Notes: generated from the letters alone by a model not told the origin. A stretch of 64,000 nt of DNA from a virus (IMGVR_UViG_3300045988_161343), one strand, 5' to 3'. Numbered from the stretch's first letter, positions 24,048-60,714 are shown. Made by a program: numbers and translations.

Positions 24048-27000
24048 TCTTTTTCTTTCTGCTTACCTTTTTTAACTTCCAAAGATGAAACAGATTTATA
24101 ATTAACTATTGCATAAGTAGGTCTAACAAATTCTACTTTAACAATCTCATCTTTCAAAGGATTTAAAATTAATTTATTAGTAGGTCCAATACGTACATGA
24201 GTACCAGGAGAACTAATATGATAATTACCAGTAGTTGCATCAAGATCATACTCTCTATAAAAAACTAAATCTGTATTAGCATCTGCTTCAATTTCGATAC
24301 TATCAATACCAGTAAAATTATATATAATTAATTGATCTGAACCATTCATCCAAGCATCAGTCTATTTATTTAAAGTTAATCCAGACAAAGGTCTATAATT
24401 TTCTAATAACTATGTACCAGTTATTAATAATTCTTCAATAGACTCTGTATCATCTTTAACTCTATTTAAAAATTCATTTATATCATTATACAATAAATCA
24501 AAAGTAGATTCAAGTTTTTCATCACTATAATTATTTAAAATAGAAGTATGTACTTTTTCTTTTATTATATCCATTAAATTTAATGTAGAATATAATCCAT
24601 AATTATATTTTTCATTAACTATCTAAGTATCATCATTTCTAAAGAACTAATGATTATCAAGAATATCTTGAGTATCAGTAAATACTCCACCAAGCTATCC
24701 CCATTGTGCAAATTCACGCTTAGCAACAGTCACCATTTTTAAGAAATCTTCTTCCTCTAAATCAACTATATAATTAATTAAAATAGGGCGAGTAAATTTT
24801 AAATACATACTATCAATAATGGCATCATCCAAATGATAAATACGACTGGGCATCATAGAAATTTCTTTACCATTTATTATCATAGTAATAATATTAGTCT
24901 AATTTTTTTCATATTCCTATAAAAGCTATTTACATCTTAATAATTCAACTGCATTAGTTAACTGACCTATCATAGTTGAACTAGTTTTATTTTTTAAATA
25001 TTCTATTTTATTTTTAAGATTTAGTTTAGGATACTATTCTACCCAAATCGCTTTTATTCTTCTTACTCGATATTTTCTATCTTCACTTATTTCTTGTTCT
25101 TCTTGAAGTTTTATTGCGTTACAAATGTTATCATAAGTAAGATTAAATTTATTATTATCAACTATAGATAATTTATTATTAGTAATTTCCTGTGCATATT
25201 TTCCATTAAATGTTCGAGCTACTTGCCCAATAACTGTTTTAGTTTTTGTACTAGCATTCTAAATTGCTAATTTAGAATTATTAGACAAAGTAGTTAATGG
25301 ATTTATCTAATATAAGATAATATTTTCTGGGGTACAATCAGCTACTTCATAAGCTGTTGAATTAAAATCATAAATCATACGATATAAAGAAGCTTGAGGA
25401 GTCCAAGTAACATTAGTTAAAGTAACTATATGATTTCCTTCAGTTGGTGACTTAAATAATTTATAACCACCATCATTTAAAAATTCTTCTACCCAATGTC
25501 TATATATACGTTCCATATATATATTATCATTAGTTGGATTAGTATTAAATGTAGAAGCATTTTGAATATTATATTGTCTTATATTATAATCATTGTTATA
25601 TGGATTCTATAAATCACGTTCAAAAGTTTTAATATATTTATCTTTTGAAATAACTATATCTCCATACCAACTATGATAATAACCACCTTTAGCATCATTA
25701 CGCATTAAAAAAGAAGAATCAATATCACTTAATAAAGAAATTTTTGCACCTAACTAAAATTCTGCATAATGTGCCAATCCATTACGCAAAATAATCGGAT
25801 ATTTAGAATTCAAGCTATCTTGCTTTTGGAATAAAGTAGTATGCTTATAACTATTCATTTTGCAATCAAAATCTAAACGAACTTGAATACCATTATTATA
25901 AATATAACTATACTAAAAATTAGACCAATGCGCTGGTGATGAATCAATATCATCACTTTCATATTTAGGGGCACTTCTTAATCCTACAGCATTCTATTTC
26001 TATAAAGCATATTTATATTTAACTCCACTTTCAACAGTAAAATCTTCATATAATAAAGTTAACTTATCATCATAATTAGTTTCATTATACCAATCAAATT
26101 GAGCTATATCTTTCCATTGAGTATAATTATCAGTTTCACAAGCTCTTGATAAAATAAAAGTACCATCAAGAGATTGATATTTTTCTACATCTATTTCACG
26201 TTCTACTTTTTCACCAGTAATAGTAGTAATAGTTATTTTTTCTTTTACTTCATAAGGATTATTTTTAATATAAATTTCTAAGCTGCCATTTTCATCAGCT
26301 CGCAAATTATGACTAAAATCTTCAATTGCTTTTATTCTAGTAATTTTACTTAATACATGAGTTTCTATATTATCTTCATTAATATTACCAGTTTGATAAA
26401 TTATATCTCCCGCATTATACCCATCTACATCATCATAATAACCTTTAATAAATTTAGGAGCCTATCCTTTTAATCCAAAATATTCCTTATACATCTAAAA
26501 AGCAACTTGATTTGCTCCGGCTATTTTATTTAATAATATGGTAGATTCAGTATTATCTTTTACTGTAAATACTAAAGTCTATAACTATTTTAAATAATTT
26601 TCAGTAATAGTAAAATTATAATATTCAGAAGATTTTTGATAATTATTCATTGTAATAACATCAAAAATCAATGAATACATTTTTGTTCCAGTCTAATCTA
26701 ATTGTCTATTAAAACTATAAGAGACTAAAGCACTATATTTATCTTTCCCTCCACCATTATACTATAGCCAATCGCTCTATAAATATGGCTCAGAACTTGG
26801 AGGATTCTTTGAATTAAAACTGCCTTCGTATAATCTAAAACGATATTTATCCAATGGTTCAGTATCGCTTTGATATCCTCCCTCAAATTTAGGGAAACGG
26901 CTATCTTCTACGTTATTACTTGATATTAAAATAAATCCTACATCTAATGAAGAAATATCTTTATTATTTAATATTTCTACAATTGGATCATCAATTGCTT

Positions 27001-27451
27001 TAGTAATTATAACATTGGACCATTCTGAAAAAGCTTCAGCTACAGTCTAAGATTTTTTCCATTTAAAAAATGAAATTTTATCTGTATAATCTATTTTCCC
27101 ATAGCCAAAACGTATCTAAATTTTATAATAAGTATTAGAAACCCAACCTATTGTATCTCCTAATTTAATATCTGAACTATTTACAGTAACTGTATATATT
27201 TCATTATCAGTAGAGGTAGTTGGCTTTTCCATATAAATAATACCATCCCAATATTTATCAGTATTAATTATACTTTTATTATTGGATTGCTATACAAATT
27301 TAATTGAGATATTCTTTACATCCTCATAATTTAATGATTTAGGTAAAGAAAAATTTATATTAATAGAGGCCGCAGTTGCTAAAAATGCTGGTATTGAACT
27401 ATCTACAATAGGCGGATATACTCTATTTATATTTATTGTGGACGCTGCCAT
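24023..27451 (-). CDS. large tail structural protein (about 1140 aa, many TAG)
   Basis: ATG 27451; ORFs 26000..26305, 25307..25516, 24695..24883, 24038..24349 share one phase; ends TGA overlapping the next start. Confidence 0.45.
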
Positions 27452-27536: not shown

Positions 27537-27564
27537 AGAATGATGGATAAAAATCCATCATTCT
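27537..27564. terminator. strong rho-independent terminator after the 1098-aa tail gene
   Basis: agaatgatggataaaaatccatcattct with A9 on the plus strand and T9 on the minus strand; the TGA stop lies in the stem. Confidence 0.6.
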
Positions 27565-30500
27565 TCAATATACCAATCACGTAATTTTATATTTTTAGGA
27601 GCAATATAATCAGATAACTATTGTTTTAAATCAGCATTTGTAGCTATCTCATTTAGCAATTTAGCTACTGTTAAAATATTAGTCACACTTTCTTCTTTTA
27701 ACTAAATAGAACCATCAACATTAAAACATAAAGCATCTCCTGCTAATTTTACAACTCCATCAGAACGCAAAATATTGGTAGGAATACCATCTATATCATA
27801 TTGATATAATCCTGAAACAAACCCTGAACTATCTAATTCTTCCGCTGGTTCTTCTTCAGCGTCTAAACTTAATGTCTAAATTTCTAAATCTTTTCCTGGA
27901 TCTTCGATAGGCAAGGTATATTTTCTACGTTTATTTTCCCACAAAGAACCTACATAAGTTTTACCTTCATCTCGTGCCCAAGGCCTACCATGAGAAAACC
28001 CTGGATCAAGAGGCTTTTCAGATTCTACATTATCTTCATCAAGTACAGGTATATTAGTACCATCATTATCTTCATCTGTTATAATAGTAATATCTTTATT
28101 ATTAAGCATTACTATTGGATAAAATAAACTACCTTTATTATCTGGCAAAAAAATCTATAATGCACCCATAGGAACTGTTTTTACTTGGTCAGTGGATTTA
28201 GCAAAATAAGCCCCTGGATAATTTTCTTGTGGTCTAAGGTATTGCTATTTTACATTATCAGAATTAGTAGAATTAACTATAATTATATAATCAGTAAGAG
28301 ACACTGGATTAGTAACCTATAATAAATCAATAAATTTTTTACCATCATATTTATACATAAAAGAAATCTATTTATTTATTAAAGAAGGAGTTCCCTTTTC
28401 ATTATAAGTAATTTTAGAAGGTATATTAATATTACCAATGCTATTAACTACAAAATTAGTACTAACCATTATAGGCTTGTAATAATATAAAGTCTAATTT
28501 GTAATAGCTTTATTCTCTAACCCTATAGTTACTTTAAATTTTATAAAATACTAACCCTTACAATCTTCAACTGGATTTGAAATTTTAAATACATTTTTTT
28601 CTTTATTTACTTTTTCACAATCTAAATTGATAGGATCTGCTTCAACAGTTATTTTATATTTATCTGTGACATTACCAACAGCATCCTAATAAGCAGAGCC
28701 ATTTATTATTTTATTACCATTATATCTTACTTCTGGCATGAGATAAATTGGTTCATAATCAGACCCACTTTTTTTATTAATAGGTTTAGTGTCAAGTTCA
28801 CTGCCATCAGCATTGCAATCTTTAATAATTAATTGATAATCTAAACCACTAACTGTTGAATCACCTGGCTTAATAAAAACAATACTTTTATTAAACTTAA
28901 ATTCTTTATCAGCTAATGTTATTACTTTTAATGATAAGGTATTATTAGTATAAGTATCTACATATTTAGGTTTAATATAATAATGTAAAGCATTATTAGT
29001 TTTATCTATCCAAAGCTTTGAAAGCATTGAATTAGTAATTTTAGTAGTAGGATATTCTAAAAGTTCTCCTCCATCGGGTGAATACCAAGTAACACTTTTA
29101 ACTCCTATATTTTCTTTATCTACGCTAATAGTTGGAGTAATAATTATTTCTTTATTTGCCTAATCTAAAGAAATACTACCATTGTCATCATACTAAAAAG
29201 TATCTGTCCCACTAAATACTACTCGCACAGGCGATTCTTGTTTATAAGTAATTAATTTATATTCACAAGGTACATAATCACCAGTATCTAATTTACTAAC
29301 ACTATAAAATATTACATTGCCATATTCTAAAAACTAACTTACATCGATCTAACTAACTCCAGTAGATAAAGGTAAATAAGATCCATCCATTAAATCAACA
29401 TACCAGTCTGCTTCATTAATAGTTTCTAATGAATCTACAATAGATAATTTAACTTCATTTTCACTAATAAATTGCGGAATTATAGTAAATCGTTCATTAT
29501 AATATTTAACTACTCTAACATCTTTATATAAAGTAACATTAGAATTATATACTACTACTAATTTATACCGCATCTATTGATATACATCTTTACCTGAAAT
29601 AGTTAATTCATTAAATCTTACATTAGGACTATCATTAATACATTCCCACCCAGGGCCGCCTATCTAATCATATTTTTCACTACCAGACAGAACTGCCGGA
29701 TTCTATTTATACCAATAACATTTGCAAGTTTTTTCTTCTAATATATTTTTATTAGCATAATAAAAAACACCTATTAATTTTATTTTATCGGTATCTTGAA
29801 TTAATGATAAACCCTATGGCGCGCTAATACCTACATAATATAAATCTTTAGTAGAATCTTGGACATCAACAAAACTAAGTTTTATATTTTTGACAAAAAG
29901 ATTAGGTTCTTTATCATAAACCGCAGTTATCTCACCTTTACCGTTAAAAACAGTATCATATCTTAAAAATCTTTCTTGAAAAAATGTAATTTTTTTTATG
30001 CCAATTAAATTAATTCCAGTTAAATCATAAATTACATACTATGGTGAAAATACTTCATAATCGTAAATACTACCAGAGAAATTTATAATATCTAATCTAC
30101 GACTAAAAACAATACCTGTATCTTTTTCTACAAAATCAATTTTTAATCCATAATTACCAGCCATCATTGTTCCATAAAACTATGTTCTAAAATCGGCCTA
30201 AATCATAATACGAGGATAAGTAGTTAATAAACTGGTAAAAATTACATCTACAGTGAGATTATCATTTTCATAAATTACCTATTCATAATATTTACTTTTA
30301 TCTTCTTCCTCTTCTATCGGTTCTTTACTATCTTCAGCCTAAGTATTAGTTGCAGTACCTTCTTTTGTATCATTTGATGAATTATCTTTATCATCTTTTG
30401 GAGTTTCTTCTTCTTCCTTTTTAGGTTCTGGGGCATAAGCTAAGATACCATATTCATTACCATTACTATATATTTCACTTATTTCAACTACTTGCTAAGA

Positions 30501-30854
30501 TAAATCGCTATATTCTTCTTCTGTATAAGAAGTAGCAGATGCTTTGCCTTCAATAGTTTTTTTCTAAGTAAAATCACCGCCTGGTACTTTTACATATACA
30601 TTAGTTCCTTTAGAATATACATAAGTTAATGTAGCTGGGGCATAAGCACGGAATTTACCTTTTTGATATTCAACAAAATACTCTCCAGTACTGGCATCAT
30701 TTAGACTTATAACTTCAGCAATTATAGTTTTATCAAAAGACAACTCAGCATCACGTGCCCGTGCTATATAATCTATAGTCTCTAATAAGGCATCTGTTAT
30801 TTCTTTTGGCTTTTTTATAGTAGCTAAATATTCTTCTTTTCTATTATAAGCCAT
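27558..30854 (-). CDS. tail protein (1098 aa, about 30 TAG), first gene after the tape measure (distal-tail / tail-tip candidate)
   Basis: ATG 30854 with RBS; ORFs 30564..30854, 29349..29573, 28686..29027, 27876..28148 share one phase; TGA stop at 27558-27560. Confidence 0.45.
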
Positions 30855-30877: not shown

Positions 30878-30905
30878 AATGAGGAGGAAATTAATCCTCC
30901 TCATT
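30878..30905. terminator. hairpin between the tape-measure gene and the next tail gene
   Basis: aatgaggaggaaattaatcctcctcatt, then RBS and ATG of next gene. Confidence 0.4.
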
Positions 30906-33900
30906 TAGATTTATTTGCACTTATATATTGAGCCGCATTATTACTAAGATTAGACAATGCTTCTTCAATTTCATAATGATCAGTAACTCCTGGGAAGTCT
31001 GCTTGAATAGTAACTTCTTGCTTAATTGGCTAAGTTTCATAAACAGGTGGAGTAGTTTTATCAATTAAATTACCCAACTTTATCTATCCAAAATTAATCA
31101 TTGATTGCACTTGTTTATCAACCCAATCATTCATATTACGAACAATATCAACTGCACGAAGTATATTAGAAGTATCTTTTTGGTTAAGAATTAATTCTTT
31201 AGGATGGACTTTAATAATTTTACCATTATCAAGTCCAAAACCTTGTCCTTTAGCCCAATTACCAGTATAAGCACCAGAAGCAGCACCATTTCCGTTTAAA
31301 ATATCATCTAACCATTTTTCATCTTTTTCGCTAGTAATCTATTTCATTTCGTCTTTAGTCCAATAATCAGTACTAGAATCATTCTTTAATTCTTGACCCT
31401 CATTACGCATATTATCTAATTTTTCATTACGGGCTGTAACTACATCATCAATACTCGTCCAAACGTTACCATTTTTATCAACAACAGTACTTTCCCCATT
31501 CTTCATACGAATAGCAATAGCACTTAAATCAACACCAACTAAATTTCTAGCACCACTTCCGCCGCCACTACTGCCAAAGTTACCATCAATATACTATTCA
31601 TTCTTAGCTAACTCTTCATCAGTCCGCTTAGAATATTTCTATTCCCAATCAAGAACCATTCCAATAGACTAAGAAATATAGCCCATTAATACATTAACAA
31701 GCTCTTCAATTTCATCACACAATTTTTGAATATGTTCTTCAAGACTATCAAGAGTACCGCCCATATCAGAACCAAAGTTTTCCCAAGATGTACCAGCAAC
31801 ATTCATTGCTGCTTCAACAACTTTTTGCCAATCTTTATAATTGGTTTGTAATTCACTAATTGTAGTATTAGAATTATTAACAAATAACATATAAGCATCA
31901 TTATAATCATACAAATCAGTCATTTGGCCGTAGAGAGTATCATGGAATGTTAATCCACTATTTACAACACCTTTATTTAATTCATCAAGTAAATATCTTT
32001 GTCTTTCAACATAATATTCTTGTAATGATAATAACTAATTTGAATAATCAGCAGAATTCTTGTCAAGATCTTGTAATGCTTCTTTAAAATCAATTTGATT
32101 CTAAATTAACTATTCACTTACATCATTAATATAATCTTTGCTAAGCTATCCTAATTCATGAACAGCATCTTCATATTTCTATGTAGCATCTTCAATTTTT
32201 TCTTCATCTGCATCATAAGCATAAGTCCAGTTGCCTGCGGCATCACGCACTAAACGCATTGAAGTTTTGGAATTTTGTTGCTCCATAAGAGCTATTTCAG
32301 CAAGTTGTAAGTCATATTTCTTCTACAAATACTCAAGGTCATATTGGCTCATCTGGACGCCATCGGCCTGAAGATCGTGAATCTCTTGCTAAATGTCTCT
32401 AAGTTTTTGTTTAGCTAAAAGGTCATTAGTATCAGCCAGCTATAAATTTAGCTAACGATTTAATTTATTTAATTCATATAAGCGTTCGGCATCATCAAGA
32501 TATTCTTCATTGATAGTTTTTGCTTTTTCGTATTTGTCTTGGAAATCTTCAAGAGTTTCAAATGGTGATAATGCATTACTTAATACATTAACGGCCATTT
32601 CAACACGCATTTCAAATAAATCTTGAGCAGCTTCAAGTGTTTCTTCCCAAGAAGCTAAAAATTCGTCAGAAGCTTTTTCAGTTTCTTGTTTTAATACTTC
32701 AACTTGATTCTCCCAGAATTTAACAGAAGATGTATCACCATCAGCCTGACGATCAGCAAGTGCAGCCTATGCCTCTTTAGTTGCTTTAGCCAAACCATCC
32801 ATTTGTGCTTTTAAGGATTTCATTTTGCCTAACATTGTTTCTACCTTAGTAGCGCCAATCTAAGTTTTTAATCCCATATCAAGCATTGAACGGCCAGACA
32901 AATCAATAATATTATTAAGATGGTCAAGCATTGATGTATAAGTATCAAGACGTTCTATCTACTTATCAATTTCATCAAGGGCTAAGTCTAGAACATTCTA
33001 AACTAAATCTTCAATATCATTACGCAAGTCTAGAATAGCTTCATTAACATCTATCAAATCACTTTGATATTCAAGTATCTATTCATCGAACATTTGTTCA
33101 TAACCTGGATACTTAGCTTTCGCGGCGTTCAACTAATCAATACCCTAACGTAATGTAGCACCTTTATCAAAGAGCTATAACATTTCTTGCTCTTGGTAAG
33201 CAAATCCTTCAAGCATTGCTTCAATAGTTTGTTTATTACCATGGGCCTATTTAAGAAGTTTTTCTTGATAATAATTAAGACGTTTAATCTAATAATCAAT
33301 CTATTTAACTTTCCAATCAATAGCTTTTGTAATGGCTTCGAGTTCAAGTTCAGCAGCTTCTTTTTCTTTCTGAGCGATAAGAGCGACATTTTCATCAATG
33401 TTCTATTGAATACCCATAGGACCATCAAGACTATCTTTGATTTTAGTAAACCATTCATTCAGGTCTTCTTCACTCATGCCATCTTCAAGATTTTTTTGAT
33501 ACTAAGCCCAAACTTTACCCCATAGCTCAGAAGCATTAGCAATTTCACCATCATCAGTAAGTTTTATTTCAAACTCTGGATGCTCTTTATTAAATTCTTC
33601 TACTTTAAGTTTTAATAATTTTTTCCAAGATTTAATCTAATCTTCAAGAATATCTTGCTCTTCTTTTAATAATTTTATTTCTTCTTGAATATATTTAGCA
33701 GAGTCTTCAGGATTAGCTCCATCACGTAAAGCTTCAAGACGATCACGCTTCTTTTCTTTGGTTTTTAATAGTTCATCTTGAATTTCTTTACCAATATCAT
33801 TAGCGGATTTAGATTCAGAGCCGCCTCCGCCTCCTCCACCGCCTTTACTACCATCTTCAGTAGTTAAATATTTTCCACCGTCTCCTTGAGTGACAATAGA

Positions 33901-36900
33901 ATTTTCAGAAGCAACAGAAACTATATCACCAATTTGACTCTTTAAATTTCTTAATTTAGCAGCGTCATCAGATGTAAGTTCACTAATATCTTTACCACCC
34001 ATAATATCAGCCATCTGAGCAAAACATTCTAATAATTGCTATAGCTAATCAGTAGTGAAATGAATGCCTACTTGGCCCATAGCATTAATCCATCCGCACA
34101 TTTCTTCTAAAGAACCACTGATAGGAGTTATGGCAGCTAAAGCCTAAGAACCATCTGCTGTAATTCTACCATTAACTACAAATCCATCGTTCTAAGATAA
34201 AAGATTAGTTATTTCAGTTAATTTAGATTGAGCTTCAGTATATAATGTTGAAAAATCTAATTTTCCCGCAGATTCATTTATTTTTTCGATTAAACCACTA
34301 TCTACCTGAGAAAACATATCTAAGACTTGACCAGCTAAAGCTGCTTCATCATCATTACCCCATAAAAATTTTTCTATTAATGGTTGATTCATCTAATAAT
34401 CTGATTCAGAAAAATTAAATAAATCTTTTACTTTTTGTTTTAAATCAGCTTCTACTTCAGCAGTATCTTCACCTTCATCACGCAGCTCTTTATATTTTGT
34501 TTTTAATTCACTAATTTCTTTGGTAGCTTCTTTTATTTCATTATTACGTAAAGCATTATATAAATTATTAATAGCTTTTTGGGCGGCATTAGCATTATCT
34601 CCAGCCTACTCCATTTCATAATTATACTAATTTAAAGCTTCAGTATTACCTTCAATATCTTGATTTTTAGCAGCCCAACTTACTAAACCTTGCTAGCTAG
34701 CCTCATCCCCTAAATTAAAGCCTGTCATTTGATTCATTTCTTTTACTGAATTAGCATCAGTATAAGCATTAGTTCTTAATAAATCAGCATTATATGATCC
34801 ATCAATATTAGCCATATAAGCATCTATTATTCCTTGAATAATACCAGCCTAAGTAGCTGAGTCCTAACGTTTATAAAAATCTAAATCATAATTACCGGTT
34901 TCATCAGTACCAACTAATTTTGCTATTTCTTCAGGACTACCAAAAATATCTAGCATTTGCTACATATAACGGCCTCGAATATCTGTAAAATCTCCTGCAG
35001 CCATAGCTTCTAAGTTATTAGCATAATCATGTCCATTAATACCAATTCTAGTACCTAAATTAAACTAATTATTCCAATTTTCCTAAGCAGTTTCTGCAAC
35101 ATTATGCTATTCCTCAGCTCTATCTATTCCAGCCTAAGTTAAAGCATTTTTAGCAGCAGTATCAAAATCTTTAATTTTTACATAGGTATCCGGGCCAGTC
35201 TAAACATAATAATCTTCAGGATTTAATCCAGCAGCTTTAAAACCTTTAGTAATTTCATCATATTTTTCTTGAGTAATAGAACTACCAACTTCTTGACCCA
35301 TCAAATTAAAGATTTCAATTAACAAATCTCTAAAAGTAGTAAAATCTTCTATAGGCAATTTATTATTAGCAGTTTCTTGCATCATATCATAGAAGCCTTT
35401 CCAAGCTCCTTCATCATCTGATACAACAATACCTAAATCTTCTAGAGTATCAATAAATTCTTCCCAAGTTCCAGAAGACCAATCAAAATCAGCTATTTTA
35501 TTTAGCTAATCAAAAGTCAAATCTTTTCCTGCTGCATTAATAGCTTCAGTGAATGCTGCTACTCCATCTTTACCAGCTACTTTAAATATATCTTCAGCAA
35601 TCTAAGAAATACGAGATTTTAATGAAACACTGTATCCCTCAAATTCATCTATTGCCTTTGATATATCATCTTTATCTTCCAGACTTAATATATATTTAAA
35701 AGCTTTTTTATTACTTATATCTTCAATATTAGTAATCTAATGCGATGCTTCTTCTACTATAGCTTCACCTAATTCTTTACCGCTAGTTACGCCTAATTCT
35801 TTCATCATATTAGACATATATGATTTTACAGTTTCTTGCTATTCAGGCTCTAATATATTAAAATCTTTACCAAATAAACTCTATCCAATTAAATTCTATA
35901 AATCTTCATCTTCAAAGCCTTTTTCTATATTTGTTTTTAACTATTTAAGCTAATCTTGAGTAAAATTACTTAAATCACCATCATTGCCAAAAAATTCTAA
36001 AATACCTTGACCTATAATTCCTTGATTACTCATACCAGTCTAGAATTTTTGAGCCATAGCATAAGTAGTCTAAAGTTCTTCTCCCATAGCCTACATAGTA
36101 GCTATTTCAGTAGCAACTTTTGAGAATGATATAGTTTTTCCATTCTCTAATTGGAATGACCTATTCTAACCTTTACCAATTACAGAATTTTTCTAGTCTA
36201 ATTTATATTCGCTATCATTTTTATCAATTTTAGCTGCCTCTAAATAAGCATCCCATAAATTGCGTAAAGCTTGATCTCCTTTGCCAGCTCCACCAGCATT
36301 TTCATCGTGAGTTCCTATTTCTCGGTCTTTACCAGTGCCGTCATTCCAACTAATAGTTCCATTGTCATTATAAAAGCTATTTTTAATAGCTTCAATATTA
36401 GCATCTACTAAAGCAGTAGTTATTTTAGCATCTTCAGTAGACATAGTATCTAATCCAAGAGCCTATTGGACTGAAGCTTCTTTCGTAACCTATAATGTAG
36501 CATCAGTATTTGCTTGTATTACTTTTGAGACATTAGATATAGCAGCTTGAACATCATCAGTATTAAATTTATCTGCGATTTTCTAAGCATAATCATTTAA
36601 AGTCGTATTGTCATTGAGAGTTTCAAATCCGTTATTTTTTAATGCCTATTCGATAATACTAACTTGTTCTTCCTAACTTTTATTCTATAAATTTTCCTAA
36701 TTATTCAAAATTAAATCTGCTATACCTGGCATTACTGAAGTATATTGTCCATTTTTTGTTAATCCTCCAGTTGTAGTGCCACTCTAAATATTAAGAACAC
36801 CCTAAAGATTACTTGTTAAGTTCTATTTAGCTTTTTCAATATTTAAGTCTTCTAAATTGCTTTGTTCATTAGCTAGAGCATATTGCTATTGAAGAATCTA

Positions 36901-39900
36901 TTTATCATAAATAGACTATAATTTATCAACAGCACTTTGGTCTATCCAAATTTCACCAGTATCTTTCTTACCCCAAGCACCTTCCATATTCTTTAGCTCA
37001 GGATAAGTATTTAAAATATTAAGAGCTTCTTCATTAGCTTTAGTTAACTATGCACGCCATTCTTTAGTACCAACAGTACATTCATCTAAAGCAGATTTAA
37101 CAGAGCTATAACTATCAAATACTGATTTTAACTATTCAGCTTTATTCTTTGTTTCTTCTAACTAACTTTTAAAACTCTCAACAGCCTATTCAGAACGTTC
37201 AATTTGTTTTTCTATAGTAAAAGACTAAGCTGTATTATATACTTTAACCAATACAGCAATGGCAGCAACTACTGCTCCAATTATTAAAGCATATTTACCC
37301 AAAACAAGTAAAGATTTAGTAAACATTGCATGAGTTGCCGCACCACTAGCCGCTAATTGCTATTCAGCAGTTCCTGCAGAACCAGCAGCTACTCCTAATT
37401 CTTTAAGCTTGGCGGTATAAGCATCAAGACCAGTTTGCATAATTTTAGCTCTAAATCCAGAGCTATTCTCTATCTTTGTCTTTAAAGCTGCCTATAAATC
37501 AGAACCCTATAAAGACCCTCCTAAACCAGTCATTATTGATAAAATATTAGTACCTAGTCCCTTCCAATTAGTTCCAATTTCTTTTAATCCACTAGCTAAC
37601 TAATTTACTCCATTAATTAAAGAAGGAATAGCAAAACTGGCCGAAGTAATACTCTAAGTTAATTTTTCTCCAAAATCTAATTCGCTATTATTTAAAGTAT
37701 CAAACATTCCTTTTAAGCTATTAATTCCAATGCCTAATTGAGAAATACCCTAAAAACTAGAAACTAATCCTTGAGAAAAACTATATATAGATCCTTGACT
37801 AGCTTTTAATTCTGCGTTAAAAGCTTCAATAGCACTCTCATATTTTTCAACCGCTCCTTTGTTCTACAAAAGAGCCTCTTTCTCATTTACGTAATCTGTA
37901 AGACACTATCTTAAAGCATTAGACTAAGCTTTTGTTAATTTTTCTGCTTTAATTTTCTAATTAACATAATTATCAATTTCAAGATTAACGTCTCTTAAAT
38001 TATTAACTTCAGCTAATATATCTTTTCTAAGAGTACCTTTAGCACCATTACTTAGATTAGAATTGTTACCCTATTGAATTAACTAATTTAATTTACTATA
38101 TCTTTGATTATTTAAATCTAATTGACCAAATTGAGAAATAAAATCTTTAAAAGAACCATTTGAATTAATTTTTAAAGACTTTAAATCTTGCATTGTTTTA
38201 TCATTATAAAAATTATCAACAATCTTTTGGCCTTTTTTTAAGTTATTGTCAAAATAAATTACGCCCTTATCTCCACCAAATTTTTTATTATTATCTTCAA
38301 AAATTGTATTGCGAGCATTACGTAAATTGTTATTACTCTAAGTTTGTTGAGCTTCTATGCTTTTTTTAGATTCTATAGCTATTTGTCCATAAGCCTAAGA
38401 AATTTTTAATAATGTCTATAATCTTAATTTATCTGTTTCATTTAACTAATTATTTGCTAGCTATAAATCATAAGAAGCCTCTGCAGCTTTAACCATTGTA
38501 GTTGTTTCTAATTCAACTGAGCCCTATTTTGTTAAATCAGGTTTTTCTTCATAAGTTGTAAAGGTCTTTAAAACATTTATCATCTACTGCTTCATAACCG
38601 CAGCCTAATTTTCAGCAGCTCCGCTGTCAATAAACAAATTGGAAGCCATACGCTGCATATTATTTACAATATCAGGACCGAAGCTTTTTAGCATTAAAGT
38701 AGAAATAACACTTAATACACCAGGCAATCCGCCTAATGAATCAATCAATTTGCTTGTAATATTTAATGTATCACTTAATGTATCATTTAATCCGATAAAA
38801 AATTTATCACTAACTAATTGCTTATAAATTTCTTCAAGAGAAGCTTGTACTCGCTTTTTAGAAGCTTCCCAACTTTCAGCATAAATATCAGCTTGTTCTT
38901 GTAAAGTACCTTCAGAATTTTTAGCCACTCCAACTAGCTCTTTAAAATAATCTTTATTCTCCATAAGATTAACTAATTGAGTGTATTGACGAACACCACC
39001 AACAGTCTATGCAAGAGCCACTTGTTCAGCACGACTTAAACTATCCCACTTATTCATCATTTCATCAAGGATAGTATTCATATCTTTTAACTCACCCTAT
39101 TGATCTTTAATACTAATACCAACTTTTTCAAGGGCTTTAGAATATTTATTTAAATCAGTACCATCTTCAAGAGTTTCTCCAAGAGTCAGACCCTAAATAC
39201 GTGCAAATAAGGTTTTAAGGCTATTACCTACTGTATTCGCACTTTCACGTGTTTTAGCAGTTAATGTAGCTAATGCAGATGTAGCATATTCATAACTAAG
39301 ACCAATAGTATTAGCAACAGATGCGAATTTCTATATACCTTCTGAAATTTCATCAGTACTAGAAGCAGTATACGCACCAAGTTTAGTCATTACATCTGCA
39401 TAATACTCCAGAGATTTGCTACCATCATAGAAGTTATTCCAAACAGCAGTTAACTAATCAGATACTTTAGAAGCACTTTCACCTGCGGCGTTAGCCATTT
39501 TAATAGTAACTTCAGTACGATCAGTAACTTCTTTATCACTTAAACCCTATTGATAATAAATTAAAGAAGCATTAGTATAATTAGTAGTAGTTGTACTTAA
39601 TGCTTGAGCAGCCTTATTAGCTTTTTCAGCAAACTCAGCCATCTAATCATTATTCTATCCAGTAACTATACGAATATCATTTAATGATCTATTTAAATCT
39701 TCTGCATAATAGTAAGCTTTCTATAAAGAACCCTATACTCCATGCATTAAGTTAGATGAAATTTGCCATTTGGCTGTATTAGCTAATGTCTTTTTAAAAT
39801 TATCTAATATAGCGTTAGTTCTTTTTAAAGGAACTTCAGCATTAATAACAGACTATGCTAATGCAACAAATGCTTTATCACCTGTTGGGCCTAGATTCTC

Positions 39901-40212
39901 TAAGTGTGTAGCAAAATCCTAAAGAGTATAACCACTCTAGCTTAAACTCTTTGAAAATTTTGATAAATCTAAACGCCCAGTATTAACATTAGTCGCCTAA
40001 TCTAAAGCAATTTTTAACTCCTAAACTGCTGCCGAGGCTTCATCTATTTCTTTTTTAGTGGCATTAACATCAAAAAATTTAATATTTTTTGTTGCTATCT
40101 AATTCATTAAAGTATCTAATGAACTTTGTAAATCTCGTAATTGCTATTTAGCTTGACCTGTATCAGCTGTAAATCGCATATTAACATTATAATTAGCACT
40201 GTTATTAGCCAT
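30901..40212 (-). CDS. tail tape measure protein, about 3103 aa, about 96 in-frame TAG, no TAA/TGA
   Basis: RBS aaaggagctattttATG at 40212; one phase links ORFs 38605..38964, 36193..36444, 35200..35385, 34192..34392, 33637..34014, 31669..31923 to TGA at 30901-30903; TMP-like N-terminal motif WDSLSRAEQVALA-TAG-TVGGVRQY; Gly-run GGGGGGGG. Confidence 0.65.
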
Positions 40213-40256
40213 AAAATAGCTCCTTTCTCTCATTATAAATTTCTATATATATAAAG

Positions 40257-40289
40257 AAAAGGCGAGAGGAACAAAGCCTCTCGCCTTTT
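40257..40289. terminator. rho-independent terminator upstream of the tape-measure gene (bidirectional)
   Basis: aaaaggcgagaggaacaaagcctctcgcctttt. Confidence 0.6.
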
Positions 40290-40327
40290 AATATTCCTAT
40301 TTAAATTAGAAATTAATTATAATATTT

Positions 40328-40854
40328 TAACCCATCTTGGTTAAAATATCTTTTACTAAAGATAGACTCTCAGGATTAGAAATCTTATCTTGCAGTTCAT
40401 TAACATCTAAGTTTAAATTAGAATAATTCTGATTCATAGCATCCATAATTCCATAAACACTATTATGATATTTATAATATCCATTAAGTGTTTTATAAGT
40501 ATAGACTTCTAAATCATCAGTTTGATTACAATCTACTTGCTTCTTCAATTCTTTCATAAACCCTGATCCAACAAGTAAATCATAAAGTTTATACAAATCT
40601 TCTTTTTGCTTATCAGTAAAAGATAAATTTGTATAATTAAATACTATTGCTAAATCCATATACATATGGAAAGCAAATTCATTCAAAAATTCATTATTAA
40701 AATCAATGACTTGTTGAATGACCAACTAAGCAATATCCATTCTTTCCTTAATAGACAAATACTGCTTTACTTCAATAGATTGCTCATTAAAACTCCATTC
40801 TTTTACCTAAGAGTTTTTTTGAAGTGTAAGCTTGGAAAATGCCAATTTTGCCAT
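40328..40854 (-). CDS. small tail protein before the tape measure (tail-assembly-chaperone position), about 175 aa, 2 TAG
   Basis: RBS gaaggaggcgaggtaATG; ORF 40327..40725 extended upstream through TAG. Confidence 0.3.
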
Positions 40855-40967
40855 TACCTCGCCTCCTTCTTTATTATATTTTAAAAAAATTACCTAGGTA
40901 AATTTTTTAATTTTCATTATCTTACAAATATATTATAACAAAAAAATTTTTCAAAGTCAAAAAAATT
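40855..40967. promoter_or_regulatory. intergenic element: three CAAAAAATTTTT-like A5-T5 repeats plus 12-bp palindrome ttacctaggtaa
   Basis: Read directly in the 113-nt gap between two tail genes. Confidence 0.3.
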
Positions 40968-42287
40968 TTACTAATCCTCAAAAATTTTTTCAAAATTCAT
41001 ACTAATAGGACTATATAGAGCTTGTTCCATGGACATTCTTCTTTTATCATTTTCTAAAATACTTTTAGATCCCTATTTTTTATTAAAATATAAATTCATT
41101 TCTATATCTTTTGCCAATTTAGCTGTTGATAAAACTTTTAAGAATCCTTCTTTTTTAGGATTATTAATAACTAAAAATTTAGTACGACCAATATCATTAA
41201 TAAAATTTGCCATTACATTCTAATAAGCATACTTAGTATCTCCAACTCTTTGCTTAGCCCCTGTTAATTCATAAATAGCTCTAATTCTAAAAAACATTTT
41301 AGGTACATCATTATGCTCGGCCATTTTAGAATGCCTTGCCATACAATTTAACATACGAGCATATCTATATAACTTATAACTTGTATCTCCATCGGCTACG
41401 GTTAAAAAAACACGATAAGGATTAGTATGGCCTAAACCTATAAAACTATTTGATAAATAGTTTTTATCACTAAAAGTAGCTAATAATAAAGCATTAACTA
41501 CTCGTTCTAACATTGTTGCGGTAGCTGTTATTGAAATATTATAATTTAATCCTGTATTATCAGCTTTTATCTATTTACTCTAAATAGCACCGACTTTACC
41601 ATTTTCTTTAATTTGAGTATAAATAGTAACAGCTTTTAAATTATTTTTTTGACGTTCTGTTGTAGTATTACCTGAATCTTTTTTTTCCTGCCCAATTTTA
41701 TAAGCTAGCCTAGAGAAATAATTTATGGCAGTTTTTGTTGCACTATCTATGACTCCATCACCAGCATTAATAATTAAATTTTTCATATTAATACTATCAA
41801 CTAACTGACCAGAACGATGTGTTTGAGGTAAAGGACCATAAGGCATTTCTATATTCTAAAAAGCATAGTCAATAGTAGTAATAAATTCATTCATAAAATT
41901 TTCTAATAAAGCACCACGTTCAGAACTATTAGCTCCTTTTTTCACCAATCCTCCATTAGTAAATAAATTAGGATTTACCATATATAACTAATTAAATAAT
42001 TCGGCTAAAGCCTAATCCTAAACTATTTTTACTAAAGACTCGGTAGTGAAAGACATTTTTTTACTATAATTATTTTGTATCTATTTAATTCCATTTAAAA
42101 CTTCTTCTAATAATTTAGCGTCCTGAACTTCTTTATTAGTAATCATATCATTTGGTCGAGCTGCTGCTCTATATGTTTCCAAAAGACTATTTAAATAAGT
42201 AGGAGTATTTACTTCATTTTTATATGAAACTCCCTTTTGTTTATAATAAACTAACTAATTTTTCTAGGCATTTGTTAATTTTGCCAT
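40968..42287 (-). CDS. tail structural protein (about 439 aa, about 13 TAG)
   Basis: ATG 42287; ORFs 41580..41846 and 41220..41513 in the same phase; ends TAA. Confidence 0.4.
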
Positions 42288-42317: not shown

Positions 42318-42345
42318 AAAAGGAGAGGGATTAACCCTCTCCTTT
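42318..42345. terminator. rho-independent terminator after the major tail protein gene
   Basis: aaaaaaaggagagggattaaccctctccttt. Confidence 0.6.
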
Positions 42346-42497: not shown

Positions 42498-43583
42498 TTA
42501 AATATCAAAATAGCTGTCGTGCATCGGATCATGGATAGTTTGAGTACGATAGACACTATCATTGTCAATATCTTCAATGATCTGAATTGCAGCAAGTACT
42601 TTCTTAGTAGGATTGAAACGAGTAGTTCCTGGGAAAGCATCAAGCGTGAAAGTGAAAGTCGCAGGATCGCCAGTCGCGGCCATGCTGAAAGTAAAGTTAG
42701 ACTGAATCTTGCAGTTAGGGATTATAAATTCTGCTGGAAGATCAACGCCGTCTTGAGTACGGAATAGAGTAGAAGCTTCAAGATAGAAGTTGCCACCAAA
42801 AGATTCAGCAGTAATTTCAATTTGACAAGTCTTGCTGGCTTTCTCAATATAATAATCAAGAAGAACAACAGAGCCTTCAAAGAGTTCTAACTTATGTTCT
42901 GCACCGGCTTCAGTTTCATCGACGATTTTGTAAGTAGAAGTGATTTCCTTAATTTGAAGACCATAATAAATCTAAGTACCAGCTTTGGCTTTAGTATCAG
43001 CTTCTTCATCAGTGCAGGTCTTATACTTCATTTCAGTTTCATCAAAATAGAACTTTTGAGGTTTTGTTGGCGCCTCTGCCTAACGAATAACTGTAGGAAG
43101 ATAAGGTTCAGTTACTGGCTCATCATTGTCAACTCGCATAGCATAAATATAGAATTCACCCTTATGCGCACCAGTAGTAGTATCAACTTGTTCATATGGT
43201 AAGTTCTTAACAAAAATTTGTACACTCTTTTTATCCTCAGAGAGAGCGACAGCAGTTGTTTTTTCAGTTACATGCTGTTTAATCGTATTCTATTTAGAAG
43301 CATCAATAAGACCTGCTCCAGCAAGAATCATGAAACCTTCAGCAGAAATAAGAGCATCTTCCATAGTGAATGTTAAAGTACGGTCGCCATCCCAAGCTAC
43401 TAAACGAGCATTGCCGCGTCCGCCTTGTGCATATACGGTTGTAGAAGCACCTTCAAGGCTAGAAGTTTTTAATGTATCGAAATAAAGAACTGGTTCGTTC
43501 GCATAGAAAACTTTATTACCAACCTTCATAGGAGCACGAGCTTTTAATACGACATCGCATATCTCACGAACACCAAATTTCAT
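42498..43583 (-). CDS. putative major tail protein (about 361 aa, only 3 TAG, GC-richer)
   Basis: ORFs 43290..43583 and 42498..42683 joined through TAG; RBS aaggaggaaataaccATG; followed by a strong terminator, like an abundant structural gene. Confidence 0.5.
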
Positions 43584-46916: not shown

Positions 46917-47483
46917 TTAACCTTCTTTTACAACGTTATAACGAGGAGTAGTTCTACGACCAGGAGGCGTTGTGGGCTTAGTTTCGGTCTTTACTCTACG
47001 TTCAGGAGCTTTTGGAGTAATTTGTTCATCCTCTGCAGCTTCAGCTTCCTTATTGGCTAATGCTCGATCAAGGTCAAATCCAGTTTTATCCTTAAGAGCC
47101 TTACGCTTATTGTAATCACTCATAGGAAGAGATACAGCATAACTCTTAATCATATCAATAACTCCAATAGGAGCAAAATCAAGGCAGTCAAGGAATTCAT
47201 CAAGAGTTCCTTCGGTAAGAAGCTTAATAACTCCAGCGTCGTCTAAATAATATTCAGGTTCTGTATGAATACCTAATTCTTCTGTAGTTTCAGTATCCAC
47301 AATCTTTAAGAAATTTTCCATTAAAGTGCGGCCTCCGCTAAGATAGGCAAGTTTCTCTAATTCCTCAAAAGGAATTTTCTTAGTTTCTCCAGGGGTAAAT
47401 TCTCTGCGGATACCTTCTTCAGGAATAGTATAAACAACCATTCCAGCACTTCTATTAGTAACTATTAAAATTTTTTTACTCAT
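46917..47483 (-). CDS. structural protein downstream of the capsid gene (about 188 aa, no TAG)
   Basis: RBS aaaaggagaataaaaaaaATG at 47483 inside ORF 46917..47540. Confidence 0.4.
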   Translation of the reverse strand: MSKKILIVTNRSAGMVVYTIPEEGIRREFTPGETKKIPFEELEKLAYLSGGRTLMENFLKIVDTETTEELGIHTEPEYYLDDAGVIKLLTEGTLDEFLDCLDFAPIGVIDMIKSYAVSLPMSDYNKRKALKDKTGFDLDRALANKEAEAAEDEQITPKAPERRVKTETKPTTPPGRRTTPRYNVVKEG

Positions 47484-47516
47484 TTTTTTTATTCTCCTTT
47501 TACTCATAAAACAAAA

Positions 47517-47548
47517 TAGGGGAGAAGGGGATTTCCCCATTCTCCCCT
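47517..47548 (-). terminator. imperfect hairpin terminator/attenuator after the major capsid gene
   Basis: ggggagaatgggg...ccccttctcccc followed by attttgtttt on the minus strand. Confidence 0.5.
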
Positions 47549-47583
47549 AAAAATATTATATATTAATTTTTAGTTAATATCAA

Positions 47584-58225: not shown

Positions 58226-58453
58226 ATGCTGAAAACAGCTTATACAAGAAAACTCGATACAGTTGGACGTTTAATGATTCCTTCTAAGCTTCGTGAAGAA
58301 TTGCATATGGTAAATGGTCATAATTATGAATTTTATATTGACGAAGTAGATGGTAAAACTTTTTTATGTATTGAATGTCCTGAAGCTAGTGATGCCGTAG
58401 CTCTTGCAAAAGAAACGTTGGAATAGAATGGGTATCGAGTAATTAAGGAATAA
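58226..58453 (+). CDS. AbrB/SpoVT-family (swapped-hairpin) transcriptional regulator (about 75 aa, 1 TAG near C-terminus)
   Basis: RKLDTVGRLMIPSKLREEL matches the AbrB N-domain GRVVIP.ELR signature; RBS gaaaggagtgagttgaATG; ORF 58226..58426 reads through TAG to TAA. Confidence 0.65.
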
Positions 58454-58459
58454 AATTAA

Positions 58460-60713: not shown

Positions 60714-60714
60714 A

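What the first reader, a model, noticed from the sequence alone, without database searches (positions are those of the whole stretch)
30901..40212. Exceptionally long tape measure protein (about 3103 aa)
One frame from an RBS/ATG at 40212 to TGA at 30901 has a TMP-like N-terminal region and a poly-Gly tract. At about 0.15 nm per residue this would give a tail of several hundred nm. It could also be a fusion of TMP with extra domains.
Basis: partly seen in the sequence, partly recalled or inferred. Interest (0 to 1): 0.6.

Follow-up and report, generated by a model that had tools for sequence, protein, structure and literature searches.

The report
Long TAG-recoded phage tape measure gene
This is a real 3,103-residue phage tail tape measure gene that is readable only because the phage uses the TAG stop codon for glutamine, and its great length (a predicted tail of about 440-490 nm) is normal for an already described group of giant long-tailed phages of low-GC Gram-positive bacteria.

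Summary
The frame from ATG 40212 to TGA 30901 (minus strand) is real, but it is not an ORF in the standard bacterial code. It contains 113 in-frame TAG codons and no TAA or TGA. TAG encodes Gln here: TAG exchanges with CAA/CAG in 84-97% identical relatives, Gln is the commonest residue at TAG columns in relatives that use no TAG, and none of the 41 window genes ends in TAG.

The recoded protein is a genuine tape measure protein (TMP). It has a full-length PF10145 domain, PHROG TMP matches, the canonical position in the tail module, a membrane-like hydrophobic segment, and end-to-end homology to the 2,673-aa TMP of cultured Enterococcus phages.

No extra domain was found by Pfam, NCBIfam, PDB sequences or a search of 5.8 billion proteins. 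This holds at sequence level only, because residues 1082-3103 could not be modelled.

The length is not exceptional for its lineage. About 40 family members measure 2,560-3,700 aa. Published examples include phAss-1-group phages (3,149-3,209 aa, also TAG-recoded), Bacillus phage Tsamsa (3,123 aa, 440 nm tail) and Thermus phage P23-45 (5,002 aa). The expected tail is about 440-490 nm.

Verdict: correct identification, ordinary for its clade, a new member of a known kind.

The parts
30901..40212 (-). Tape measure protein gene: 3,103 sense codons plus TGA stop, with 113 in-frame TAG codons read as Gln
   Evidence: 113 TAG, no internal TAA/TGA; PF10145; PHROG TMP families; collinear with the phAss-1 and Enterococcus VRE9_3 TMPs
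40220..40226 (-). Shine-Dalgarno sequence AAAGGAG, 7 nt upstream of the ATG at 40212
   Evidence: Sequence read; the start is supported by alignment with the family consensus N-terminus
38578..40212 (-). Conserved N-terminal TMP core (residues 1-545), containing PF10145 PhageMin_Tail at residues 199-406 (window 38995-39618)
   Evidence: It is 45-94% identical in relatives that share only 55% identity overall. An AlphaFold2 model of a 72%-identical relative is all-helical here with pLDDT about 90
37249..37305 (-). Strongly hydrophobic, membrane-like segment (residues 970-988, VLGKYALIIGAVVAAIAVL)
   Evidence: Kyte-Doolittle 19-residue mean of 2.35; the surrounding block 957-1098 is conserved with phAss-1
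33913..38577 (-). Hypervariable central 'ruler' region (residues 546-2100). Sequence is free to vary but length is conserved
   Evidence: Only 7-22% identity to L007/L014/L017, whose flanks are 76-99% identical and whose totals are 3,127-3,229 aa. No domain hits. Residues 1100-2100 have only one homologue among 5.8 billion proteins
33820..33843 (-). Poly-Gly tract (G8, residues 2124-2131)
   Evidence: The tract varies in a close relative, where P0121 has KGGSGGGGS. PolyG is common in TMPs (PMC13585406)
30904..33912 (-). Conserved C-terminal third (residues 2101-3103). The last ~120 residues (window 30922-31278) are shared with the C-termini of annotated TMPs
   Evidence: residues 2146-2835 and 2979-3097 align with the VRE9_3 TMP; 29-45% identity across all relatives at residues 3001-3100
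40257..40289 (-). Terminator-like hairpin (13-bp stem followed by a T-run) between the chaperone-position gene and the TMP RBS. It may act as an attenuator
   Evidence: its function is inferred and was not tested
40327..40854 (-). Gene in the tail-assembly-chaperone position (about 175 aa from MAKLAF...; phrog_30570)
   Evidence: phrog_30570. It is homologous to VRE9_3 CDS0015, which sits in the same position. No -1 frameshift extension was found
42498..43583 (-). Major tail / tail tube protein gene (361 aa, phrog_2729)
   Evidence: tblastn hits annotated 'tail tube' or 'major tail' proteins of Bacillus Tsamsa-like, Lactococcus 949-group and Enterococcus EF1-group phages
27558..30854 (-). First of the large distal tail genes downstream of the TMP (1,098 aa, 25 TAG), followed by 24023-27451 and 20421-24026
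   Evidence: ORFs under TAG-sense reading; phrog_1887 'tail protein' for 20421-24026

Best explanation
The region is one gene encoding the tail length tape measure protein of an uncultured, low-GC, large-genome siphovirus-like phage. The phage decodes TAG as glutamine (genetic code 15).

Shown here:
- The frame is continuous only with TAG as sense.
- TAG corresponds to Gln.
- The product has the TMP core domain, the TMP genomic position, a hydrophobic segment, and conserved N- and C-termini homologous to the TMPs of cultured phages.
- Between the conserved ends lies a ~1,500-residue stretch with free sequence but conserved length.

Inferred from established TMP biology (Katsura's lambda gpH ruler experiments): a few copies of the largely helical protein are held by the chaperone. 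Their C-termini join the tail-tip initiator, and tail tube subunits polymerise around them until the N-terminus is reached. This fixes the tail length.

Using calibrations from related phages (0.141 nm per residue in Tsamsa, 0.158 in PMBT24), the tail should be about 440-490 nm. At infection the TMP is ejected, and its hydrophobic segment probably helps form the channel across the membrane.

Full-length product requires read-through of all 113 TAGs. The yield is e^113, where e is the read-through efficiency per TAG, so e must be at least 0.98 to give even 10% full-length protein. The gene can therefore be expressed only once a TAG suppressor system is fully active late in infection. That system is presumably a phage tRNA(CUA), which is not present in this window.
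For: Frame and code:
- 113 TAG, 0 TAA and 0 TGA in 3,103 codons.
- The whole 14-57 kb module resolves into tightly packed long ORFs only with TAG as sense.
- 0 of 41 genes end in TAG.
- Where 84-97% identical relatives differ at our TAG sites, most changes are to CAA/CAG: 5 of 7 in L003, 10 of 16 listed in L004, 14 of 24 listed in L005.
- Gln is the top residue at TAG columns in relatives that use no TAG: 15% against a 6.5% background. Across 120 database homologues it is 23% against 6.7%.

TMP identity:
- PF10145 scores 98.6 bits against a 33.2-bit cut-off.
- phrog_4211 and phrog_34405, both 'tail length tape measure protein', match at E=1e-43 to 1e-41.
- The synteny is TerL, portal, capsid-like, connectors, tail tube, chaperone-position gene, TMP, distal tail genes. 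Enterococcus phage VRE9_3 has the same layout.
- The protein is homologous from end to end with the VRE9_3 TMP and collinear with the phAss-1 TMP.
- The N-terminal core matches TMPs of the Tsamsa-like, 949-group, SPbeta and Enterocloster phages.

Helical character and lack of other domains:
- An AlphaFold2 model of the first 1,081 residues of a 72%-identical relative is 77% helix and 1% strand.
- Alpha-type hydrophobic periodicity dominates 74% of sequence windows, against 43% in shuffles. Proline is about 1%.
- No other domain was found.

Length as a conserved trait:
- Family members measure 2,560-3,700 aa.
- Relatives whose central region is only 7-22% identical still total 3,127-3,229 aa.

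Tail-length calibration: Tsamsa has 3,123 aa and a 440 nm tail (PMC3903500). PMBT24 has 1,508 aa and a 238 nm tail (PMC11035940). PhiL47 and phage 949 have tails of 480-500 nm (PMC3888941).
Against: - No suppressor tRNA is present in the 64-kb window or in ten 21-kb relative loci, so the decoding agent is inferred from phAss-1, which has three tRNA-Sup-CTA genes (PMC10607447).
- The canonical -1 frameshifted chaperone pair upstream of the TMP was not found.
- The tail type is inferred. No sheath gene was detected, but the 439-aa gene at 40968-42287 is an orphan with no matches.
- Residues 1082-3103 could not be modelled. Their helical nature rests on composition, periodicity and the absence of domain hits.
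- No virion has been observed, so the tail length is a prediction.
Confidence: 0.9

Rival explanations
1. The protein is a TMP fused to one or more extra functional domains, such as a muralytic enzyme, a polymerase or an ejected effector. These would sit in the hypervariable central region, so only part of the 3,103 residues measures length.
For: There are precedents. The P23-45 TMP carries an N-terminal virion RNA polymerase (PMC10770324). SPbeta YomI, whose N-terminal core is homologous to ours, is annotated as a transglycosylase-containing TMP. Residues 546-2100 have no detectable homologues outside close relatives, and sequence searches can miss novel folds. This region could not be modelled.
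Against: No Pfam, NCBIfam, PHROG (other than TMP families) or PDB-sequence match exists outside the TMP core, and standard-code relatives show none either. Composition is uniformly helix-friendly with about 1% proline, and no 100-residue block favours beta structure. The region is hypervariable at 7-22% identity while its length is kept; that pattern fits a spacer, not an enzyme. In Tsamsa, 3,123 aa gives a 440 nm tail (0.141 nm per residue), so essentially the whole protein serves as ruler there.
Confidence: 0.06
2. The TMP belongs to a contractile-tailed (myovirus-like) phage and not to a siphovirus.
For: Enterococcus phages EF1 and EF5 are listed as 'Myoviridae' in one paper's table, without micrographs (PMC6435515). 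A sheath-sized 439-aa orphan gene lies between the tube gene and the chaperone-position gene.
Against: The tail tube protein is homologous to those of EM-verified siphoviruses: Tsamsa, phiL47 and the 949 group. No sheath family matched any gene from the portal to the TMP. The 439-aa gene lies after the tube gene, whereas in myoviruses the sheath gene precedes it (established gene order; my knowledge). The phAss-1 authors also infer siphovirus morphology (PMC10607447).
Confidence: 0.06
3. The region is a decayed pseudogene, or an array of short genes read in the standard code, and no 3,103-aa protein is made.
For: Under table 11 only pieces of 125 aa or less exist. GenBank's phAss-1 record annotates the equivalent region as many small hypothetical proteins.
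Against: All 113 interruptions are TAG and none is TAA or TGA. Relatives show the same pattern with conserved protein sequence. TAG interchanges with CAA/CAG. No gene uses TAG as its terminator. Code 15 has been validated by metaproteomics in other gut phages (PMC9523058).
Confidence: 0.01

Closest known systems
TMPs of the proposed Phassvirus genus (phAss-1 OQ749652, BK046881_ctckW2, BK025033_ct6IQ4; 'Caudoviricetes code 15 clade'), PMC10607447
   Same: They are TAG-to-Gln recoded and almost the same length: 3,149-3,209 aa against 3,103. I counted 110 TAGs in the phAss-1 TMP. The matches are collinear at equivalent coordinates. The genomes are about 136 kb with low GC, come from the human gut, and are inferred to have siphovirus morphology.
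   Different: Identity is only 27-32%, in three blocks, and there is no nucleotide-level match. This is therefore a different genus or higher-level lineage. phAss-1 carries three tRNA-Sup-CTA genes, and none is seen in this window.
Near-identical uncultured contigs IMGVR_UViG_3300045988_152007 (188 kb), 3300029858_000001 (158 kb), 3300045988_164317 (145 kb) and 3300045988_158846 (114 kb)
   Same: Their TMPs are 97%, 86%, 84% and 67% identical over the full length. Lengths are 3,097-3,150 aa with 107-110 TAGs and the same TGA stop.
   Different: They are unannotated metagenomic contigs and nothing is known about their biology.
TMP of Enterococcus phages VRE9_1-4, EF1, EF5 and H1 (cultured, about 134-142 kb, standard code)
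   Same: The tail-module synteny by PHROG family is the same. The TMPs are homologous at the N-terminus, the C-terminal third and the extreme C-terminus, and both show PF10145 only.
   Different: They measure 2,673 aa, use the standard code, and share 20-32% identity. Our protein has about 430 extra residues in the central region.
Bacillus phage vB_BanS-Tsamsa and Lactococcus 949-group phages (phiL47, 949), the giant siphoviruses
   Same: The tail tube protein and the TMP N-terminal core are homologous. The Tsamsa TMP is 3,123 aa with a 440 nm non-contractile tail. PhiL47 and 949 have tails of 480-500 nm.
   Different: They use the standard code and infect different hosts. TMP identity is only about 23-25% over the core.
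Thermus phage P23-45 / P74-26 TMP (5,002 aa, ~800 nm tail), PMC10770324
   Same: It is a giant TMP that sets an extremely long siphovirus tail, which shows that 3,103 aa is not a record.
   Different: It has an N-terminal fused virion RNA polymerase and is unrelated in sequence. In our protein the N-terminus is the ordinary PF10145 core.

Membership tests
Phage tail length tape measure protein (PF10145 / TP901-type TMP) | PhageMin_Tail (PF10145) core domain above Pfam's gathering score | tested here: met
   98.6 bits against a 33.2-bit cut-off, E=5.7e-28, residues 199-406, covering 201/201 profile positions. Nine PHROG TMP families also match.
Phage tail length tape measure protein (PF10145 / TP901-type TMP) | Position in the tail module: after the major tail/tube gene and the chaperone, before the distal tail/baseplate genes; largest structural gene | tested here: met
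   It matches the annotated Enterococcus phage VRE9_3 locus.
Phage tail length tape measure protein (PF10145 / TP901-type TMP) | Homology to TMPs of cultured phages extending to both termini | tested here: met
   Residues 1-541, 2146-2835 and 2979-3097 align with the VRE9_3 TMP at 1-545, 1667-2319 and 2556-2670. The C-terminal 120 aa hit the C-termini of annotated TMPs, and the N-terminal core hits many annotated TMPs.
Phage tail length tape measure protein (PF10145 / TP901-type TMP) | Predominantly alpha-helical, extended, proline-poor protein with hydrophobic segment(s) | tested here: inconclusive
   This is met for the N-terminal third through a proxy: an AlphaFold2 model of a 72%-identical relative is 77% helix and 1% strand. 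The hydrophobic segment at 970-988 and about 1% proline come.
Phage tail length tape measure protein (PF10145 / TP901-type TMP) | Upstream tail assembly chaperone pair produced by a programmed -1 frameshift | tested here: not met
   A phrog_30570 gene occupies the chaperone position, but it has no overlapping -1 frame extension. This feature is common among TMP loci but not universal, and its absence does not exclude membership.
Phage tail length tape measure protein (PF10145 / TP901-type TMP) | Protein length proportional to the measured tail length | not testable with these tools
   No virion is available. The prediction of 440-490 nm comes from the Tsamsa and PMBT24 calibrations.
Genetic code 15 phage (TAG reassigned to Gln) | Many in-frame TAGs in conserved genes, and TAG not used as a terminator | tested here: met
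   The TMP has 113 TAGs. TAG occurs in most late genes, and 0 of 41 genes end in TAG.
Genetic code 15 phage (TAG reassigned to Gln) | TAG positions correspond to Gln in homologues | tested here: met
   TAG-to-CAA/CAG is the dominant exchange in close relatives. Gln is enriched 2.3-3.4 fold at TAG columns.
Genetic code 15 phage (TAG reassigned to Gln) | Phage-encoded suppressor tRNA with anticodon CUA | tested here: inconclusive
   None was found in the 64-kb window or in ten relative loci. Related genomes are 114-188 kb, so most of the genome was not examined. Some recoded phages lack a detectable suppressor (PMC10607447).
Proposed genus Phassvirus | Nucleotide-level genome similarity to phAss-1 (genus-level intergenomic identity) | tested here: not met
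   The TMP gene gave no megablast match against the phage collection that holds phAss-1. TMP protein identity is only 27-32%. This is a related lineage, not a member of the genus.
TMP with embedded enzymatic domain (e.g. SPbeta YomI transglycosylase, M23 peptidase TMPs, P23-45 RNAP-TMP) | A recognisable catalytic domain within the TMP | tested here: not met
   PF10145 is the only Pfam hit at E<=0.01. NCBIfam and PDB-sequence searches of residues 541-3103 were negative. Relatives also show PF10145 only. The central region has no non-TMP homologues.

The most novel reading that the evidence does not exclude
The TMP may act as the most stringent built-in checkpoint of the phage's code switch. Its C-terminus is needed to nucleate tail assembly and lies downstream of 113 TAG codons. 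No functional TMP, and therefore no tail, can be made until TAG suppression exceeds roughly 98% per codon, and prematurely terminated fragments would be excluded from assembly. Under this reading the heavy TAG load, the terminator-like hairpin in front of the gene and the low copy number needed would together set both the timing and the amount of the protein.

A second reading is also not excluded: the sequence-free, length-conserved 1,500-residue centre might hide a novel ejected effector.
Probability: 0.15. Interest if true: 0.5.

Novelty: new member of a known kind. Interest (0 to 1): 0.25.

Why it matters
The practical point is about annotation. Standard gene callers shatter this 9.3-kb gene into dozens of tiny false ORFs. 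That has happened in the GenBank record of the nearest published relative, and EF1/EF5 label their TMP a 'cobalt-zinc-cadmium resistance protein'. Reading TAG as Gln restores a textbook tail module.

Biologically, the gene adds a diverged lineage to the known long-tailed, large-genome siphoviruses of low-GC Gram-positive gut bacteria. It also gives a clean natural illustration of the ruler principle: the central 1,500 residues diverge beyond recognition while total length stays within a few percent.

It does not open a new question. Long TMPs, TAG recoding of late genes and variation of the genetic code within phage clades are all published.

Tried and rejected
- The full-length (3,103 aa) query to the search for homologous proteins failed internally, so I searched in two parts instead.
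As a result the central and C-terminal thirds could not be modelled. Only the N-terminal 1,081 aa of a 72%-identical relative could be, and its fold search gave no significant hit.
- Megablast of the gene against deposited phages found nothing.
- The Rfam and tRNA scans of the window were empty.
- Self-BLAST found no internal repeats, so the length does not come from recent tandem duplication.
- The search for a G/GT-type frameshift chaperone was negative.
- Testing the 439-aa neighbour as a possible sheath gave no matches at all.
- Host inference from bacterial genome bins failed. The hits are phage-sized contigs binned into MAGs with contradictory labels, from Clostridia to Methanobrevibacter.
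- The pseudogene / many-short-genes reading was rejected because every interruption is TAG and TAG interchanges with Gln codons.

Full report
**1. Observation.** The ORF listing under table 11 finds no long ORF between 30901 and 40212; the largest piece is 125 aa. Translating the claimed minus-strand frame gives 3,103 sense codons interrupted by many stops. Counting them shows 113 TAG, no TAA, and no TGA before the terminal TGA at 30901-30903. Reading TAG as sense turns the whole minus-strand block from about 14 to 57 kb into tightly packed long ORFs, and none of the 41 genes ends in TAG. The start at 40212 has an AAAGGAG Shine-Dalgarno 7 nt upstream. The N-terminus aligns with the start of the family consensus, whereas the in-frame ATG at 40233 has no RBS. 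The poly-Gly tract is G8 at residues 2124-2131.

**2. What TAG encodes.** Three tests agree on Gln.
- Among 120 database homologues of the N-terminal third, Gln is the commonest residue at our TAG columns, at 23% against a 6.7% background.
- In relatives that use no TAG at all (standard-code L013, Enterococcus VRE9_3, and TGA-recoded L011, L012 and L016), Gln is again the top residue, at 15% against 6.5%. This test is not circular.
- In 84-97% identical relatives, most sites where our TAG differs carry CAA or CAG: 5 of 7 in L003, 10 of 16 listed in L004, and 14 of 24 listed in L005.

Within the gene, Gln is encoded by TAG 113 times, CAA 100 times and CAG 8 times. This is genetic code 15. It has been described for gut phages and validated by metaproteomics in crAss-like phages (PMC9523058), and recoding is concentrated in structural and lysis genes (bioRxiv 10.1101/2021.08.26.457843). 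No tRNA was found in the window or in ten relative loci, so the suppressor is inferred and was not observed.

**3. Identity of the protein.** With TAG read as Gln, Pfam finds a full-length PF10145 PhageMin_Tail domain at residues 199-406 (98.6 bits, cut-off 33.2) and nothing else. PHROGs places residues ~10-545 in nine 'tail length tape measure protein' families, two of which have profiles longer than 2,600 positions. The neighbourhood is a canonical virion module:
- TerL at 53274-55025 and portal at 51120-52811
- a capsid-like gene at 47584-48720, followed by connector genes
- a tail structural protein at 42498-43583 (phrog_2729)
- a gene in the chaperone position at 40327-40854 (phrog_30570)
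- the TMP, followed by three genes of 1,100-1,200 aa, the third of which (20421-24026) matches a PHROG 'tail protein' family.

Cultured Enterococcus phage VRE9_3 has the same PHROG order, followed by an annotated 2,673-aa TMP. Our protein aligns with that TMP at the N-terminus (1-541), the C-terminal third (2146-2835) and the extreme C-terminus (2979-3097). The phrog_2729 protein matches annotated tail tube or major tail proteins of Bacillus Tsamsa-like phages, Lactococcus 949-group phages and the Enterococcus group. The TMP N-terminal core matches the TMPs of those same groups plus SPbeta YomI and Enterocloster phages. No sheath family was detected. The 439-aa gene at 40968-42287 is an orphan, so a non-contractile tail is likely but not proven.

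**4. Architecture.** A 17-sequence full-length alignment shows a mosaic.
- Residues 1-500 are conserved in all relatives.
- Residues ~500-2100 fall to 7-22% identity, even in relatives (L007, L014, L017) whose residues 2200-2800 are 76-99% identical to ours and whose total lengths are 3,127-3,229 aa.
- Residues 2600-2700 and 3000-3100 are conserved across the whole family, including phAss-1 and VRE9_3.

There is one strong membrane-like hydrophobic segment at 970-988, about 1% proline and no internal repeats. Conserved ends, a free centre and a conserved length are what a molecular ruler predicts.

**5. Test of the 'fusion with extra domains' alternative.**
- Pfam at E<=0.01 finds only PF10145.
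- NCBIfam and PDB-sequence searches of residues 541-3103 are empty.
- The standard-code relatives L013 and VRE9_3 also show only PF10145.
- Residues 1100-2100 searched against 5.8 billion proteins returned a single hit, a close relative's TMP fragment with no Pfam domain.
- The structure tool accepted neither the recoded translation nor a sub-range of that relative. I therefore modelled the N-terminal 1,081 residues of a 72%-identical relative with a 70-sequence alignment. The model has mean pLDDT 69.8 (about 90 across the PF10145 core), 77% helix and 1% strand. It gave no significant PDB fold match, and the top non-significant hits are SMC/MukB-type coiled coils.
- A crude hydrophobic-periodicity analysis shows alpha-type periodicity dominating 74% of windows, against 43 +/- 5% in shuffles.

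The fusion reading is therefore unsupported, though it is not excluded at fold level for residues 1082-3103.

**6. Is the length exceptional?** No, not for this lineage.
- phAss-1 and its two congeners have TAG-recoded TMPs of 3,149, 3,150 and 3,209 aa (PMC10607447). My own code-15 reading of phAss-1 gives 3,150 aa with 110 TAGs, collinear with ours at 27-32% identity.
- In IMG/VR and GTDB contigs, about 40 complete family members measure 2,560-3,700 aa. One standard-code gene reaches 3,700 aa, and two incomplete genes already exceed 3,850 aa. These lengths count from the first in-frame ATG, a rule that gives 3,110 aa for the window gene.
- Tsamsa has a 3,123-aa TMP and a 440 nm tail (PMC3903500). 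PhiL47 and 949 have tails of 480-500 nm (PMC3888941).
- P23-45 has a 5,002-aa TMP and an ~800 nm tail (PMC10770324).
- Poly-Gly tracts are routine: 95.5% of TMPs have polyX tracts, and polyG is the second commonest type (PMC13585406).

**7. Mechanism.** The gene, its code, its family membership and its conserved-length architecture are shown above. The following is inferred from established TMP biology. The chaperone-bound, largely helical TMP joins the tail-tip initiator through its conserved C-terminus. The tube then polymerises along it up to the conserved N-terminus, which sets the tail length. With 0.141 nm per residue (Tsamsa), 0.15 (helix rise) and 0.158 (PMBT24: 1,508 aa, 238 nm; PMC11035940), the predicted tail is 438, 465 and 490 nm respectively. 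Because 113 TAGs must all be read through, the full-length yield is e^113, where e is the read-through efficiency per TAG: 0.3% at e = 95%, 10% at 98% and 32% at 99%. The gene can therefore function only when TAG is essentially fully reassigned. This fits the published idea that recoding delays late-gene expression. A terminator-like hairpin sits between the chaperone-position gene and the TMP RBS and may further limit expression of this low-copy protein; that was not tested.

**8. Verdict.** It is a genuine, very long TMP, but it is ordinary for an already described supergroup of large-genome, long-tailed phages of low-GC Gram-positive bacteria, including published TAG-recoded members. It is a new, diverged member of a known kind, and interest is low.

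Noticed in passing
Loci L003-L018 and L019-L064 (TMP genes starting near position 10001 of each locus): The same TMP family occurs in three coding states. TAG is sense in most loci (27-131 in-frame TAGs). TGA is sense in L009, L011, L012, L016, L041, L047, L050 and L057 (15-26 in-frame TGAs, no TAG). L013, L023, L024, L042, L045, L046, L048, L056, L060 and the Enterococcus phages use the standard code. N-terminal identity between the states is about 35-55%. Variation of the code within phage clades has been reported in general (bioRxiv 10.1101/2021.08.26.457843).
   Followed up: partly
window 33913-38577 compared with L007, L014, L017: The TMP shows mosaic conservation. Relatives are 76-99% identical to the window in residues 2200-2800 and 88-94% in residues 200-400, but only 7-22% in residues 500-2100, yet total length differs by less than 4%. 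This suggests either recombinational swapping of central modules of equal length or very fast divergence under a constraint on length alone.
   Followed up: partly
window 40257-40289, 42319-42345, 30884-30902 (minus strand): Terminator-like hairpins bracket the tail genes. A 13-bp stem lies just upstream of the TMP RBS, an 11-bp stem lies after the tail tube gene, and a weaker one follows the TMP stop. The region has 10 terminator-like sites against 4.3 +/- 2.1 in shuffles.
   Followed up: no
window 40932-40960 (minus strand): A near-consensus sigma-70-type promoter (TTGACT, 17 nt, TG-TATAAT; 11 of 12 matches) lies between the 439-aa orphan gene and the chaperone-position gene. The chaperone and TMP genes may form their own transcription unit. 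Promoter-like sites are not enriched in the region overall.
   Followed up: no
window 40968-42287 (minus strand): A 439-aa gene with 12 TAGs sits between the tail tube gene and the chaperone-position gene. It has no match in Pfam, PHROGs, PDB sequences or 50,697 phage genomes. Its function is unknown, and Enterococcus phage VRE9_3 has an unrelated 453-aa gene just before its TMP.
   Followed up: partly
window 46917-48720 compared with 30901-40212: The capsid-like gene (47584-48720) and its neighbour (46917-47540) contain no TAG at all, and the tail tube gene has only 3. In the TMP and the distal tail genes TAG supplies 47-64% of Gln codons. The most abundant virion proteins appear to avoid the recoded codon.
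   Followed up: no
window 58440-64000: The window changes abruptly after a strong terminator near 58,450. Two near-consensus promoters lie at about 58,740-58,890. Beyond them GC rises to 0.37-0.41 (against about 0.28 elsewhere), the plus strand becomes purine-rich, and only ~100-aa plus-strand ORFs without TAG are present. There is no match to deposited phages, no Rfam family and no tandem repeats. It could be an early-gene module, acquired DNA or an assembly join. A small AbrB/SpoVT-like ORF begins at 58227; that label comes from reading the sequence and was not tested.
   Followed up: partly
L001 (phAss-1 OQ749652) and hits H4, H5 (Enterococcus phages EF1, EF5): Public annotations of these TMPs are wrong or fragmented. 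The phAss-1 GenBank record splits its 3,150-aa TMP into dozens of small 'hypothetical proteins', and EF1/EF5 label their TMP a 'cobalt-zinc-cadmium resistance protein'.
   Followed up: no
L019-L064 (GTDB genome contigs): Phage-sized contigs (many of 125-175 kb) carrying this TMP family are binned into MAGs labelled Clostridium, Mollicutes, Bacilli, Bacteroidales, Treponema and even Methanobrevibacter. These are probably mis-binned phage genomes, so the labels are unreliable as host evidence.
   Followed up: no
L023 (3,700 aa, standard code); L026 and L031 (more than 3,850 aa, incomplete): Some members of the same TMP family are substantially longer than the window's protein, which would imply tails of more than 520-580 nm at 0.14-0.15 nm per residue.
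   Followed up: no
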